From Acidimicrobiia bacterium (GTDB lineage Bacteria; Actinomycetota; Acidimicrobiia; Spongiisociales; ZC4RG35): DNA of 64,000 nt. Positions within the stretch are counted from its first letter, which is position 1. Each line of letters starts with the position of its first letter. The notes below the pieces were generated by a model. That model saw nothing but the letters and a program-made list of their open reading frames with translations. It was not told the origin of the DNA and made no database searches. Positions 17,458 to 20,846 of this stretch are shown piece after piece. The stretch covers positions 2,432,001-2,496,000 of the forward strand of contig OZ244034.1 of assembly GCA_965215185.1 (NCBI GenBank), read 5' to 3'. A program made the position numbers and the translations under genes.

Positions 17458-17817
17458 ATGCAGTTTCTCACAATCAAAAGCTCAACACCACAAAAACCCA
17501 TCTTGCTCACCGATTCGGCGGTTGCCAAAGTCAAGGCCCTGCTGGCCTCGGAGGGGGAGGACAATCTCGGATTGCGCGTGGCGGTAAGGCCGGGCGGGTG
17601 CTCGGGTTTCTCATATGAAATGTTCTTCGATGCCGACGTGGAGGAAGAGGACATCATCGCCGACTTCGAGGGTGTGCGGGTGCTGGTGGATTCGCAAAGC
17701 GCCAAGCGCATCAGCGGAGCGGTCCTTGACTACCGGGAGGGCTTGATGGATTCTGGGTTTTCCATCGACAATCCCAACGTAACCCGCTCTTGTGGGTGCG
17801 GCAACAGCTTCTCCTAA
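17458..17817 (+). CDS. A-type Fe-S carrier (ErpA/IscA/HesB family)
   Basis: PGGCSGFSY and C-terminal SCGCGNSF. Confidence 0.93.
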   Translation: MQFLTIKSSTPQKPILLTDSAVAKVKALLASEGEDNLGLRVAVRPGGCSGFSYEMFFDADVEEEDIIADFEGVRVLVDSQSAKRISGAVLDYREGLMDSGFSIDNPNVTRSCGCGNSFS

Positions 17818-17825
17818 AGAGAACC

Positions 17826-18206
17826 ATGCCAAAACAGGTTCCTCAGCTCACCGGTGCTCCCCCTCCCCTCGCTCCCTACTCTGTGGTTACCGAAGCGCAG
17901 GGGTTGGTTTTCATCTCGGGCCAGATAGCCCTCGATCCGCAAGGCGGCCCAACCCCCGAATCGGCCACCGACCAAGCCGACCTTATTCTCAGAAACATCG
18001 GGAACATATTGACAGAACTTGGCCTTGGCTACTCTGACATCGTCAAAACCACAGTCTTTTTGACAGATATTCGCGACTTCGCAGCGGTCAATGGTGTCTA
18101 CGGCGGATTCTTCGACGGGCCACCCCCCGCCCGCTCAGCGGTGGGAGTGGCGGCTCTACCTCTACCCGGCCTGAAAATCGAGATCGAAGCGATCGCCGCC
18201 CGCTGA
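17826..18206 (+). CDS. RidA family reactive-intermediate deaminase
   Basis: PYS, FISGQI, KTTVFL..FAAVNGVY, PARSAVGVAALP..IEIEAIA. Confidence 0.93.
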   Translation: MPKQVPQLTGAPPPLAPYSVVTEAQGLVFISGQIALDPQGGPTPESATDQADLILRNIGNILTELGLGYSDIVKTTVFLTDIRDFAAVNGVYGGFFDGPPPARSAVGVAALPLPGLKIEIEAIAAR

Positions 18207-18221
18207 CCTTTCGTTCAAGAG

Positions 18222-18244
18222 GGGACTTATATACCTAGGTTGAC
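18222..18244 (+). repeat. Left terminal inverted repeat
   Basis: GGGACTTATATACCTAGGTTGAC, exact reverse complement of 19605-19627; extends inward to 27/29. Confidence 0.95.
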
Positions 18245-18290
18245 AGGGCGCCGAATATTTTTGTCACAGGGGTGGGATATTCTCAGGATC

Positions 18291-19614
18291 GTGGTTCCTT
18301 GGGTGCAGACGATCCGGTTGAAAGGGCGTTGTTCCCGTTCGGCGCACCGTCGCCTGGACGACATCTTCCGCGCAGTGTTGCGAGTTGTGTAACGCATGCC
18401 TGGAATCTTGGAAGGGCACATACCGGTGGTGGAGGGAACACCATCCCGATGAGCCTCTTCCCCTAGAACTGAACCAGTCTCACTATGACCGCCTGGTGAT
18501 GTTCACAGATGTGCGCAAGGACCATCCTGAGTGGGACCGTTTGAGCCTTCAAGTGGGTCGCGGAACGTTGCGCCGCTTTGACCGGACTATCCAATCCTTC
18601 TACGAGAGGTGCAAGGACCCTTCCAAGAAGGCCGGGTTTCCCCGTTTCAAGCCGCGTCACCGGTGGAAGTCGGTAGAGATTGTGAACGCTGACCGCGCGA
18701 TGCTTAAGGCTCCGGGAGAGAGGAAGAACCACAGCGAGAAGTGGTGGAGACTGACGGTGAAAGGCGTGCCGCAGATACGGTTCGAGGACAAGCATGACCG
18801 CCTCATTACCGCGTTGGAGAGCGGCCGGTTGGTGGAACTGCGAGTGGTCCGCACTCCTCTGCGAGTCGAGATACACGCGGTTATCAAGCATCCTGACCGC
18901 CCACCGGTGGCAGATCCTGTCAATCCTGTGGGTTTGGACAAGGGCCTCAAATCGCGTCTGGTCACTTCTGATGGAGAGCACCTACCACCCACAACCGTGG
19001 ATCTGCGACAGGTGCTGCGCGTTCAGCGTCTGTTCAGCAGATCCGTCAAAGGCTCACGGTCTCGCATCAAGAAGCGCAAACACTTAGCCAAACAGCACCG
19101 CCGCCTGCGGGAACAGGCCATCCAAGCCGATTTCCGCCTGGCCGACCGCCTGGTCAAGGCCTACGACAGCATAGCTGCCGAGAAGCTCAATGTCGCCCGA
19201 CTACTGAAAACCAAGCTGTTCTCCAAGAAGATGTCACAGCAACGCTGGGGATCCTTCGATCTCATACTGGAATACAAAGCCGCGAAAGCTGGTATCCGGT
19301 ATGCGGGGGTGAACCCCAGCCACACCTCCACCGGCTGTTCTCGATGCGGGCATCACCAGAAGATGCCCCTCAACGTGAGAACCTTCCGGTGCGAACAGTG
19401 TGGACTATCCATATGCAGAGACCACAATGCTGCAATCAACATATGCGCCCGAGACTATCCCACCTGGGATCCTTGGGGTCGGGTGGGACATGACCTCGTG
19501 TTTCCCGACGCGGTGCGCTCTACAAATCTCTGTTGTAAGACATCTTTCGGCTCAGGCCGGAAGATGCTGGCAGACACCGCAGAACAGTATCACCTAGACG
19601 CTCCGTCAACCTAG
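18291..19614 (+). CDS. tnpB: TnpB RNA-guided endonuclease with an apparent +1 frameshift near 18368
   Basis: RuvC-I GLDKG, RuvC-II AAEKL, Zn finger CSRC/CEQC, RuvC-III RDHNAAINI, GFPRFK. The N-terminus MVPWVQTIRLKGRCSRSAHRRLDDIF (GTG 18291) joins AQCCELCNACLESW if one C is removed. Confidence 0.88.
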
Positions 19615-19627
19615 GTATATAAGTCCC
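19458..19627 (+). ncRNA. Putative omegaRNA (reRNA) scaffold overlapping the tnpB 3' end
   Basis: Hairpin TCCCACC..GGTGGGA (19458-19488); GCGGTG (19510-15) pairs with CACCGC (19575-80), enclosing TACAA/TTGTA and the 11-bp stem CATCTTTCGGC-TCAG-GCCGGAAGATG (19541-19566); position typical for TnpB guides. Boundaries approximate. Confidence 0.55.
19605..19627 (-). repeat. Right terminal inverted repeat (contains the tnpB stop codon)
   Basis: GTCAACCTAGGTATATAAGTCCC; TAG at 19612-19614. Confidence 0.95.
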
Positions 19628-19628
19628 T

Positions 19629-20846
19629 TCAAAAGACCTCTTGGCACCAGGGCTGGGGATGCCAATCGAACATCGCATCGGCCAGCGCCCAAGCCGATGG
19701 CGCCCCTCGCAAACGTCCCACCATCCCAAGCCGGCGAAACCGAGACCGACCCAGGAAGCTCGCCCCCAGGTCCTCCATATCGAGAATGAGGTCAGGTTCG
19801 TCGCAGACCAGACGACACGATCCCACCCCTCCCACAACCTCCAGGCGATATCGGGAGGACTCGTCCTCCATTGGATCGAACACCTCGATGACGATTGACC
19901 CGTCAGCCGAGTAGCGCCGAGCGGAAAGGGCGACCGGCACATCCAGGATCCTCACCCACAGGCCGTCACAGAGGGTTTGGGACTCTCGAAAGTTGGAGAA
20001 CAGGTGATGCAGGGCTGTCTCGGCGGGGATGTTCCAAGCCTGAAGACGGCTAATGAGATCCTGGTTCACCAAGAAACTCCACAGACCGGAATAGGCCTCC
20101 GGGGTGAGCGCAATCATCTCTGTCAGCAGAACGGTTATCCCCATGGAAATGCCAACCCATGAACCCTGAGTGCGGTACTGCACATATCCGATGGCTTCGC
20201 CGGCGGAGTCAAGCGCCAAGGCGTAGCGGTAACTGCTGGCGTTTTTCCTGTGCCGGGGGTAGTCACCGAGGACTTCCAGTTCCCACCAGGCCGGCGAGCG
20301 GGCAAACATCCCTGGCACCTCTTGGCGCTTGCGTTCGAATATGGGCGGCAAGGCATCCTTAGCCTCAGTGGAATCGATCAGGACGACCCGCGCCGGCCGG
20401 GGCGCCAGCCGGTGTGGAAGCAGCGGAAAGCTATCGATCACCAATTGGGTAGTAACTCCGGCCGCTCCGTATCCAAACCGGCCATACAACGGAGCCTCCG
20501 ATGCCCACAACACGGCCAGCGCCTCCCCTCTCTGCCGGGCATCGGCCAGCAGGTCGGTCATCATCCGGCGCATCAACCCGCGTCGGCGATGACTGGGGAG
20601 CACCGTTACATTGCTTACGCCGGCGGCCGCCACTTCCCCACCCGGGATGGTCAAGTCGAAGCTGTAAACCCCGGCCGCGCCTACCAGCCGCCCTCCGTCG
20701 AAAGCCCCCCGGTTGCGGTCGAGTTCCAGGAGCCGGCGGTCTCTCTCCTCTTCGACGGGATCGGGATCCTGTCCGAAGACAAGGGCCACCGTCCGGCGCA
20801 ACGCTTCCAACTCCTCGGGAAAAACGCCCCGTATCTCCACATCCAT
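19629..20846 (-). CDS. Eis-like GNAT N-acetyltransferase with C-terminal SCP2 domain
   Basis: VTVLPSHRRRGL, LWASEAPLYGRFGYG, LWVRILDV..LSARRY, C-terminal PWCQEVF. Confidence 0.92.
   Translation of the reverse strand: MDVEIRGVFPEELEALRRTVALVFGQDPDPVEEERDRRLLELDRNRGAFDGGRLVGAAGVYSFDLTIPGGEVAAAGVSNVTVLPSHRRRGLMRRMMTDLLADARQRGEALAVLWASEAPLYGRFGYGAAGVTTQLVIDSFPLLPHRLAPRPARVVLIDSTEAKDALPPIFERKRQEVPGMFARSPAWWELEVLGDYPRHRKNASSYRYALALDSAGEAIGYVQYRTQGSWVGISMGITVLLTEMIALTPEAYSGLWSFLVNQDLISRLQAWNIPAETALHHLFSNFRESQTLCDGLWVRILDVPVALSARRYSADGSIVIEVFDPMEDESSRYRLEVVGGVGSCRLVCDEPDLILDMEDLGASFLGRSRFRRLGMVGRLRGAPSAWALADAMFDWHPQPWCQEVF

What the first reader, a model, noticed from the sequence alone, without database searches (positions are those of the whole stretch)
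18214..19635. TnpB enclosed by 23-bp terminal inverted repeats and an 8-bp target duplication: an RNA-guided nuclease in an IS1595-like element
Seen: a 1406-bp unit bounded by GGGACTTATATACCTAGGTTGAC (18222-18244) and its exact reverse complement (19605-19627), extending inward to 27/29. It is flanked directly by TTCAAGAG (18214-18221) and TTCAAAAG (19628-19635), 7/8 identical. Its only cargo is tnpB, with all three RuvC acidic residues and the Zn finger, and there is no tnpA, serine recombinase or DDE gene. Established: canonical TnpB hosts (IS200/IS605, IS607) lack TIRs and make no target duplication, whereas IS1595-family DDE elements have TIRs of about 20-30 bp, 8-bp duplications and often carry passenger genes. 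From memory, ISNwi1-subgroup ends begin with a GG..TTAT-like motif. Inference: a non-autonomous IS1595-type cassette mobilised in trans that has captured a TnpB-omegaRNA module, paralleling Fanzors in TIR transposons.
Basis: partly seen in the sequence, partly recalled or inferred. Interest (0 to 1): 0.9.

Follow-up and report, generated by a model that had tools for sequence, protein, structure and literature searches.

The report
TnpB riding an IS1595-type transposon
This is a small jumping-gene cassette with IS1595-type inverted ends that carries only a (here broken) RNA-guided nuclease gene, tnpB, and its guide-RNA region, a rarely described bacterial pairing of TnpB with a cut-and-paste type transposon.

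Summary
Window 18222-19627 is a 1406-bp element with exact 23-bp terminal inverted repeats (TIRs) and a 7/8 8-bp target duplication. A strain in another study's run has the perfect 8/8 duplication. Fifteen of 15 same-genus relatives examined show the empty ridA/eis junction without repeat arms.

The element belongs to a multi-copy family. Of 34 TIR pairs examined in seven same-genus genomes, 18 have perfect 8-bp duplications. The same TIR type bounds intact IS1595-family transposase elements in two sister species and in other phyla, each with 8-bp duplications.

The only cargo is tnpB plus a 3' region of about 185 nt with a covariation-supported RNA structure, the likely omega RNA. The window's tnpB carries a real +1 frameshift; intact paralogues lie elsewhere in the genome.

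TnpB-bearing elements have a G just 5' of the left-hand duplication in 23 of 24 cases. I read this as a candidate one-base TAM.

Weak points: no examined locus encodes both TnpB and the transposase; most TnpB-bearing genomes lack an intact transposase; no RNA data exist.

DDE-associated TnpBs with inverted repeats are already published (Altae-Tran 2023). The IS1595 partnership was not found in print, so this is a new variant of a known kind.

The parts
17790..18206 (+). Upstream flanking gene, RidA/YjgF-type (Endoribonuclease L-PSP). Its stop codon lies 15 nt before the element.
   Evidence: Pfam PF01042 E 3.4e-36; ORF list.
18214..18221 (.). Left copy of the 8-bp target-site duplication (TTCAAGAG). 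G18219 is a later point change.
   Evidence: Sequence. Run X5 reads A at 18219, giving a perfect duplication.
18222..19627 (+). The whole 1406-bp non-autonomous IS1595-type element, with TnpB/omega-RNA cargo.
   Evidence: The empty site in 15/15 relatives examined.
18222..18244 (+). Left terminal inverted repeat, 23 bp exact (27/29 when extended to 18250). Contains TTGACA at 18240-18245.
18291..19614 (+). tnpB pseudogene. It has a GTG start at 18291 and a +1 frameshift (extra C at about 18368). The main frame runs 18385-19614 and the stop TAG lies inside the right TIR. The RuvC D/E/D residues and the CxxC..CxxC zinc ribbon are present.
   Evidence: ORFs; alignment with copies B and E; Pfam; catalytic columns; the extra C is confirmed in contigs of three runs.
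19443..19627 (+). Candidate omega-RNA scaffold: a conserved, structured 3' region that overlaps the ORF tail and the right TIR.
   Evidence: No differences from copy B from element position 1235 onward, while the rest is about 8% diverged. RNAalifold finds 22 pairs, 10 with compensatory changes. 89.7% of cells are paired against 35-51% in slid controls, and 0/500 shuffles reach the covariation score. Single-sequence fold z -3.33. No RNA data.
19605..19627 (-). Right terminal inverted repeat, 23 bp exact.
19628..19635 (.). Right copy of the target-site duplication (TTCAAAAG). It holds the stop codon of the eis-like gene. It is inferred to be the first 8 nt of the omega-RNA guide, which would run to about 19647.
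   Evidence: Sequence. The guide role is inference from TnpB biology.
19629..20846 (-). Downstream convergent gene, an Eis-like GNAT acetyltransferase with an SCP2 domain.
   Evidence: Pfam Acetyltransf_9 E 3.2e-35, Acetyltransf_17, SCP2_2.

Best explanation
Window 18222-19627 is a non-autonomous member of an IS1595-family transposon lineage, a 'mobile insertion cassette' in ISfinder's recalled terminology. The lineage has ends of the type GGGAMTTATATACC... and makes 8-bp target duplications. The element's only cargo is an OMEGA module: tnpB plus an omega RNA encoded at the 3' end, overlapping the ORF tail and the right TIR.

Shown here:
- It inserted between the convergent ridA and eis-like genes and duplicated TTCAAAAG.
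- It belongs to a multi-copy family with many independent 8-bp duplications.
- The same TIR subtypes bound IS1595 transposase-encoding elements in sister species.
- The 3' ~185 nt form a conserved structure with compensatory changes.
- This copy's tnpB is frameshifted.

Inferred:
- An IS1595 DDE transposase supplied in trans moves the element.
- Transcription through the right TIR gives a scaffold followed by a guide made of the duplicated 8 nt plus downstream DNA.
- TnpB, here necessarily from an intact paralogue such as copy C or F, would cut the element-free allele next to a minimal TAM, a G just 5' of the duplication. Recombinational repair would then restore the element. The occupied right junction has C in that position and would be spared.
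- In this genome the element is probably stranded, because no intact transposase is present.
For: TIR and duplication. Perfect duplication in run X5.

Empty site: 15 of 15 relatives examined have ridA and eis stops 7 to about 13 nt apart, with one T(T)CARAA-like copy and no arms.

Family: 15 genome matches against 0 for the control. 34 TIR pairs, of which 18 have perfect and 4 have 7/8 duplications.

IS1595 link:
- L040 7123-10046 has a 31-bp TIR, the duplication TTACGTTT, and a transposase matching NF033547 at 182.5 bits (cut-off 75), plus PF12762 and PF12760. Its TIR is 22/23 identical to that of TnpB element L077.
- L294 has the TIR GGGAATTACATACTTGGGTAGACG, 21/23 to the C/D-type TnpB TIR, and the duplication ATAACTAA.
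- IS1595 transposases between such ends with perfect 8-bp duplications occur in Dehalococcoidia, Binatia, Gemmatimonadota and Thermoflexus loci.
- The genome's only PF12762 match is a fragment lying just inside such an end.
- No Y1 transposase was found in the genome.

TnpB:
- NF040570 at 191 bits for copy C.
- Alignment to ISDra2 TnpB structures 8h1j/8exa, E about 3e-23.
- D, E, D and four Cys are invariant in 8 of 8 aligned TnpBs.

RNA:
-.
- The conserved CGCAGAACAGTATC motif is read in three different frames in W, C and F (translations; alignment). Its conservation is therefore at the nucleotide level.

TAM-like signal:
- G at -1 in 23 of 24 TnpB elements with a duplication of at least 7/8 (binomial p 1.6e-11 against a 0.30 background).
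- The mirror position is C in only 7 of 24 (Fisher p 2e-6).
- The duplications are A-rich on the TnpB sense strand, 98 A to 57 T (p 0.001).

Clade:
- Only the 2 close metagenome relatives (58% and 52% identity) have the TIR; 0 of 78 at 27-33% identity do.
- A tree with all 11 TIR-linked TnpBs held together is not rejected (p-AU 0.548) and scores 5.6 lnL better than the free quick tree.
Against: No locus examined encodes both TnpB and an IS1595 transposase. That is 0 of the 119 TIR-seeded loci and none of the TIR pairs.

Among the 7 TnpB-bearing genomes of the genus, only G007 has an intact transposase. G002 has a truncated one, G000 and G003 have fragments, and G004, G011 and G015 have none found. 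Three TnpB-free genomes (G009, G013, G016) have intact ones.

Mobility nevertheless looks recent in genomes lacking the transposase. G002 has two 100% identical 1468-bp copies at different sites, each with its own perfect duplication. G011 has copies 99.6% identical.

No autonomous element with the window's exact inner TIR (CCTAGGTTGAC) was found. The nearest, at about 21/23 by eye, is in an alphaproteobacterial locus, L184.

There is no RNA evidence, and no Rfam family matches.

The window's tnpB and both of its close paralogues are broken: a frameshift, a nonsense codon and a frameshift.

The G at -1 may be a preference of the transposase. Autonomous elements show it in 4 of 6, and the difference from TnpB elements is not significant (Fisher p 0.09).

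Ten of 34 TIR pairs have no recognisable duplication.
Confidence: 0.8

Rival explanations
1. The element has IS1595-like ends but is moved by something other than an IS1595 transposase. This could be an unrecognised transposase, or TnpB itself, whose RuvC fold is an RNase H-like fold as in DDE enzymes.
For: Very recent copies exist in genomes where no intact IS1595 transposase was found: G002 has 100% identical copies and G011 has 99.6% identical copies. TnpB and the transposase are never seen in one element. Presence of TnpB and of intact transposase is not positively associated across the 17 genomes of the genus.
Against: TIR subtypes match between autonomous IS1595 elements and TnpB elements at 22/23 and 21/23. 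The 8-bp duplication is the same. Cargo other than TnpB, and a 114-bp miniature element, carry the same ends without TnpB. Broken tnpB copies keep perfect ends. The genomes are about 94-96% complete, and plasmids or phages may be missing from them. No transposition activity of TnpB is known (recalled).
Confidence: 0.08
2. TnpB is merely decaying passenger DNA. The conserved 3' structure serves the DNA transposition machinery, as a subterminal binding site or DNA hairpin, and is not an omega RNA. No RNA-guided activity is involved.
For: All three copies of the window's subfamily have broken tnpB while the ends stay perfect. No RNA data exist. No Rfam family matches. No sigma-70-like promoter was found.
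Against: Intact TnpBs with all catalytic residues persist in several subfamilies and phyla. The structured region is asymmetric: it sits at the right end only, about 185 nt long, immediately 3' of RuvC-III, as in known TnpB omega RNAs. The cargo element A and the miniature element keep only about 45-50 bp of the right end. The orientation-specific G at -1 is hard to explain by a symmetric TIR transposase.
Confidence: 0.1
3. This is an ordinary IS200/IS605 (IS1341-type) TnpB element that landed in a host palindrome, so the 'TIRs' are the split arms of that palindrome.
For: The site is a short spacer between convergent genes, where hairpins are common.
Against: The 15 of 15 empty alleles examined have no arms. 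The same ends flank copies at many unrelated sites, each with its own duplication. No Y1 transposase was found in the genome.
Confidence: 0.01

Closest known systems
DDE-transposase-associated TnpB branches (DDE-1 to DDE-6) of Altae-Tran et al. 2023, PNAS (PMC10691335; section 9 read)
   Same: Prokaryotic TnpB inside transposons with inverted terminal repeats. The TnpB 3' end lies close to a transposon end. Some solo TnpBs carry the same ends as transposase-bearing elements, which suggests mobilisation in trans.
   Different: The main text names IS630. A 2026 review (PMC13565253, passages) lists ISL2, IS630 and IS1031. 'IS1595' occurs 0 times in the PNAS main text. Its supplements, which I could not open, might hold this clade. 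In every locus I examined the transposase is never co-encoded with TnpB.
IS1341-type solo-tnpB elements of the IS200/IS605 family
   Same: About 1.4 kb, with tnpB as the only gene and the guide RNA encoded at the 3' end running to the right end.
   Different: Those have no TIRs and no target duplication. They have subterminal hairpins, and a Y1 TnpA moves them next to a 4-5-nt TAM (review PMC13565253, passage). Here there are 23-bp TIRs and 8-bp duplications, and no Y1 gene was found in the genome.
Fanzor1 / Fanzor2* in eukaryotic and viral TIR transposons, e.g. the non-autonomous SfAV Fanzor element (Yoon et al. 2023, PMC10711439, passages)
   Same: A non-autonomous TIR element that makes target duplications and encodes only the TnpB-type nuclease. 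The guide RNA runs through the TIR into the flank.
   Different: Those hosts are eukaryotes or viruses. Their duplications are predicted to be part of the RNA scaffold. Here the 8-bp duplication is variable, so it more likely forms the start of the guide. Neither Merlin nor IS1595 is mentioned in the Fanzor papers I searched.
IS1595-family insertion sequences with passenger genes (the ISNwi1/ISNha5-type organisation is recalled, not checked) and transposase-less 'mobile insertion cassettes' (term recalled)
   Same: TIRs of about 23-31 bp and 8-bp duplications. Passenger genes are present, for example a DNA methylase in L040 and a Wadjet-like cluster in this genome.
   Different: The window element has no transposase at all, and its passenger is an RNA-guided nuclease module.

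Membership tests
IS1595 family (as a non-autonomous derivative) | Terminal inverted repeats matching those of elements that encode an IS1595-type DDE transposase | tested here: met
   L040, L294 and loci from five other phyla carry transposases between GGGAMTTATATAC... ends. Identity to TnpB-element TIR subtypes is 21-22 of 23.
IS1595 family (as a non-autonomous derivative) | 8-bp target-site duplication | tested here: met
   7/8 in the window and 8/8 in run X5. 18 of 34 pairs are perfect. Autonomous elements also make 8-bp duplications.
IS1595 family (as a non-autonomous derivative) | Encodes a DDE_Tnp_IS1595 / NF033547 transposase | tested here: not met
   No such ORF in 18222-19627. The genome has only a 56-residue fragment elsewhere. 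The element is therefore non-autonomous, not an IS in the strict sense.
IS1595 family (as a non-autonomous derivative) | Actually mobilised by an IS1595 transposase | not testable with these tools
   Needs a transposition assay. The co-occurrence data are mixed.
TnpB / OMEGA RNA-guided nuclease module | RuvC D-E-D triad and CxxC..CxxC zinc ribbon | tested here: met
   Pfam hits. Alignment to ISDra2 TnpB. Invariant D228, E309, D389 and four Cys in alignment A3. The matching motifs are visible in the window translation.
TnpB / OMEGA RNA-guided nuclease module | Intact reading frame | tested here: not met
   +1 frameshift at about 18368, confirmed in short-read contigs. Intact paralogues are L010:1028-2428 and L011:1006-2412.
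TnpB / OMEGA RNA-guided nuclease module | Structured guide RNA encoded at the 3' end and reaching the right end | tested here: inconclusive
   Conserved structure with covariation. No Rfam match and no RNA run.
TnpB / OMEGA RNA-guided nuclease module | Conserved TAM next to the left end / target | tested here: inconclusive
   Only one conserved base, a G 5' of the duplication, in 23 of 24 elements. No cleavage test.
IS200/IS605 (IS1341 group) or IS607 | No TIRs and no target duplication; Y1 or serine TnpA in the family | tested here: not met
   TIRs and duplications are present. No PF01797 match in the genome.
Published DDE-associated TnpB branches (Altae-Tran 2023) | Placement in one of the branches DDE-1 to DDE-6 | not testable with these tools
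The main text does not name IS1595.

The most novel reading that the evidence does not exclude
A phylum-spanning clade of TnpB (Actinomycetota, Chloroflexota, Rhodothermota) lives only as trans-mobilised cargo of one IS1595 lineage, never beside its transposase. It has adapted to a DDE transposase with loose target choice by shrinking its TAM to a single G. The variable 8-bp duplication forms the start of the guide. This would make it a prokaryotic counterpart of Fanzor1 in TIR transposons, and a source of compact nucleases with almost no TAM restriction.
Probability: 0.35. Interest if true: 0.8.

Novelty: new variant of a known kind. Interest (0 to 1): 0.65.

Why it matters
TnpB is normally explained as a helper that offsets the scarless excision made by Y1 or serine transposases. 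A TnpB lineage that has stably joined a DDE, TIR-type, duplication-making transposon in bacteria tests how general that logic is, and gives a tractable bacterial model for the Fanzor-in-TIR-transposon situation.

The target-site data suggest a one-base TAM. If confirmed, that would interest people looking for small genome-editing nucleases.

The case also shows that neighbourhood-based surveys can miss transposase partners that act only in trans. Here the link is visible only through the shared ends.

Tried and rejected
Rfam, all families, E up to 1, on 18100-19750: no match.

Sigma-70 promoter scan: 0 sites. One weak terminator-like site lies outside the element.

Sequencing runs: no RNA holder was listed, so nothing can be said on expression. 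Laid contigs showed no joint across 18221/19628, meaning no empty allele in those four runs. Contigs break at the repeats.

Y1 transposase search in the genome: none.

The 640-aa ORF of cargo element A: no Pfam or NCBIfam family.

TnpB-first scan of metagenome contigs: 78 of 80 loci were distant TnpBs (27-33% identity) without these ends. They served only as a negative background. My first motif setting missed the TIR variant of L206. Searches corrected that.

By my own arithmetic a 15-mer is expected by chance roughly 2000 times in that collection. Single hits without a partner or a nearby gene were therefore ignored.

The family-level transposase search sampled only 2 other genomes of the genus and was repeated at genus level.

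Literature searches for a TnpB-IS1595 link found nothing relevant. Supplements of PMC10691335 could not be opened and may bear on novelty.

I considered a palindrome-insertion artefact and rejected it.

I considered that the duplication is part of the RNA scaffold, as proposed for Fanzors. I think this less likely because the duplication is variable.
Full report
OBSERVATION. GGGACTTATATACCTAGGTTGAC lies at 18222-18244 and its exact reverse complement at 19605-19627. With up to 3 mismatches the window holds only these two matches, and 100 shuffles gave none. The flanks are TTCAAGAG and TTCAAAAG. The unit is 1406 bp, and its only sizeable sense ORF is a TnpB: Pfam Cas12f1-like_TNB E 4.8e-22 and OrfB_IS605 E 1.3e-07.

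IT IS AN INSERTION OF A MOBILE FAMILY.
- The window's genome is one 3.12-Mb contig with 60.7% G+C. It holds 15 matches to the 23-mer at up to 3 mismatches, against 0 for the reversed control.
- These form pairs around tnpB copies (B, C, D, E, F, H and the window copy W). They also form pairs around a 3.5-kb unit with other cargo (A) and a 114-bp miniature element.
- I examined 34 TIR pairs in this genome and six same-genus genomes. Of these, 18 have perfect 8-bp duplications, 4 have 7/8, 2 have 6/8 and 10 have 5/8 or fewer.
- ridA and the eis-like gene are adjacent and convergent in all 15 same-genus relatives whose locus I fetched. Their stops lie 7 to about 13 nt apart, with one T(T)CARAA-like copy and no repeat arms. 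The sixteenth relative matched but gave no locus.
- In run X5, from a different study, contigs carry the same insertion but read A at 18219, so the duplication there is a perfect TTCAAAAG.
- The stated refutation criteria (arms present in the empty allele, or homologues without TIRs) are therefore not met.

THE CARGO.
- Copy C (L010:1028-2428, 466 aa) and copy F (L011:1006-2412, 468 aa) are intact.
- C matches NCBIfam guided_TnpB at 191 bits. It aligns to the solved ISDra2 TnpB structures (8h1j, 8exa; E about 3e-23) with the RuvC-II Glu, the RuvC-III Asp and the zinc-ribbon cysteines in register.
- In an alignment of eight TnpBs of this kind the three acidic residues and four Cys are invariant.
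- The window copy has these motifs, but an extra C at about 18368 shifts the frame after the first ~26 codons. Short-read contigs of three runs with no differences over that stretch carry the same extra C, so it is not an assembly slip.
- Its two closest paralogues are also broken: B by a TAG codon and E by a +1 insertion.
- Intact TnpB ORFs of this kind, in this genus and in other phyla, run to the TAA inside the right TIR.

A STRUCTURED RNA AT THE 3' END.
- W and B differ by about 8% overall. They are identical from element position 1235 to the end.
- I aligned the last 190 nt of 20 different elements. RNAalifold gives 22 pairs in five helices, 10 of them with compensatory changes.
- On that structure 89.7% of cells pair, against 35-51% when partners are slid by 1-3 columns. 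The covariation score is 0.326 against 0.07-0.13 for the slid controls, and 0 of 500 shuffles reach it.
- The window's own 208 nt fold with z -3.33.
- A conserved CGCAGAACAGTATC motif is translated in three different frames in W, C and F. The constraint is therefore on the nucleic acid.
- Position, size and orientation match what is known of TnpB omega RNAs. No Rfam family matches and no RNA run was available, so this remains inference.

WHO MOVES IT.
- A same-genus genome holds a 2924-bp element (L040 7123-10046) with 31-bp perfect TIRs GGGAATTATATACCTAAGTGGCG..., the perfect duplication TTACGTTT, a passenger DNA methylase and an IS1595-family transposase. The transposase scores NF033547 at 182.5 bits (cut-off 75) and matches PF12762 (E 2e-37) and PF12760.
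- Its TIR is 22/23 identical to that of a TnpB element in another species (L077).
- A second autonomous element (L294 96-2841) has the TIR GGGAATTACATACTTGGGTAGACG, 21/23 to the C/D-type TnpB TIR, and the duplication ATAACTAA.
- I scanned one genome per species for GGGAMTTATATACCT. It found IS1595 transposases between such ends, with perfect 8-bp duplications, in Dehalococcoidia, Binatia, Gemmatimonadota and Thermoflexus loci. It also found TnpB-only elements with the same ends and 8-bp duplications in Caldilineaceae, Rhodothermales and Dehalococcoidia.
- The genome's single PF12762 match is a short fragment just inside such an end. It sits at the edge of an 8.3-kb TIR-bounded unit.
- The ends and the duplication length thus tie the element to IS1595.

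The weak side of this link is as follows.
- No examined locus has TnpB and the transposase together (0 of 119).
- Only 1 of the 7 TnpB-bearing genomes of the genus has an intact transposase, while three TnpB-free genomes have one.
- G002 has two 100% identical copies at different sites although only a truncated transposase was found there.
- A transposase on an unassembled plasmid or phage, or one since lost, would explain this, but that is not shown.

TARGET-SITE ASYMMETRY.
- Oriented by tnpB, the base just 5' of the left-hand duplication is G in 23 of 24 elements with a duplication of at least 7/8. That is 19 of 20 in this genus and 4 of 4 in other phyla (binomial p 1.6e-11 against 0.30).
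- The mirror position after the right-hand copy is C in only 7 of 24 (Fisher p 2e-6).
- The duplications are A-rich on the tnpB sense strand, 98 A to 57 T (p 0.001).
- A symmetric TIR transposase should not give an orientation-specific preference.
- Six autonomous elements show G in 4 of 6 and no A/T bias. That sample is too small to separate the two groups (p 0.09).
- I read the G as a candidate one-base TAM. In the element-free allele it precedes the sequence that the right-flank guide would match, while the occupied right junction has C (...GTCCC) there. This is inference.

HOW WIDE AND HOW OLD.
- Searching metagenome contigs with a TnpB alignment, the two close relatives (58% and 52% identity) have the TIR and the RNA motif. 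None of 78 distant ones (27-33% identity) has them.
- In a quick LG+G4 tree of 84 TnpBs the 70 ordinary ones form one starred side.
- The best tree with all 11 TIR-linked TnpBs held together is 5.6 lnL better than the free search, with p-AU 0.548. A single origin is therefore not rejected. Long branches make this tentative.

COMPARISON WITH PRINT.
- IS200/IS605 and IS607 have no TIRs and make no duplications (review PMC13565253, passages).
- Altae-Tran et al. 2023 (PMC10691335, section 9 read in full) already describe six DDE-associated TnpB branches with inverted terminal repeats, and solo TnpBs with matching ends. IS630 is named there, and the review lists ISL2, IS630 and IS1031. 'IS1595' does not occur in that main text.
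- Five full-text searches found no paper linking TnpB to IS1595.
- The supplements are closed, so prior listing cannot be excluded.
- Fanzors in TIR transposons, including a non-autonomous viral one, are the closest functional parallel (PMC10711439, passages).

VERDICT. The element is a non-autonomous IS1595-type cassette with a TnpB/omega-RNA cargo. This copy's nuclease gene is dead, and the element is probably stranded in this genome. It is a new variant of a known kind (DDE-linked TnpB). The trans-only arrangement and the one-base TAM candidate are the parts worth an experiment.

Noticed in passing
L204:718-9011 (outside the window, same genome): An 8.3-kb unit bounded by GGG(A)CYTATATACGATCCTACACAC inverted ends with the duplication TTATTAAA. 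It carries four large genes (SbcC/Rad50-like ATPase of 1354 aa, DUF2397, DUF2398/MksE-like, DUF3323+DUF2399). By recollection this is a Wadjet-type anti-plasmid cluster. It also carries the genome's only IS1595 transposase fragment. A defence system may thus be travelling as IS1595 cargo.
   Followed up: partly
L009:1001-4513 (same genome): A 3513-bp element with the same TIR family and the perfect duplication ACAGAAAA. It shares about 115 nt of the left end and about 48 nt of the right end with the TnpB elements. Instead of TnpB it carries a 640-aa ORF with no Pfam or NCBIfam match.
   Followed up: partly
L013:501-614 (same genome): A 114-bp miniature element with both ends of the same TIR family, each resembling the right end. 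No clear duplication.
   Followed up: no
L028:1348-2815 and L033:1401-2868 (a same-genus genome): Two 100% identical 1468-bp TnpB elements at different sites, each with its own perfect 8-bp duplication, in a genome where only a truncated IS1595 transposase was found. These are a good pair for testing an active TnpB.
   Followed up: partly
L233, L279 (metagenome contigs): TnpB genes flanked by a different inverted repeat (GGGTAGTGGCCTAGTTTC-like). In the tree they group next to the Chloroflexota TIR-linked TnpBs. This may be another TIR-transposon association.
   Followed up: no
same genome, about 1.5 kb upstream of L204 (seen): A fragment of an ISL3-type transposase C-terminus (recognised by eye, not scored) close to the Wadjet-like unit. 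The area looks like a graveyard of mobile elements.
   Followed up: no
L040:7312-8670: The autonomous IS1595 element carries a passenger N6/N4 DNA methylase (PF01555 E 2.3e-45) with a weak Mrr-like nuclease tail. Its start overlaps the transposase stop.
   Followed up: partly
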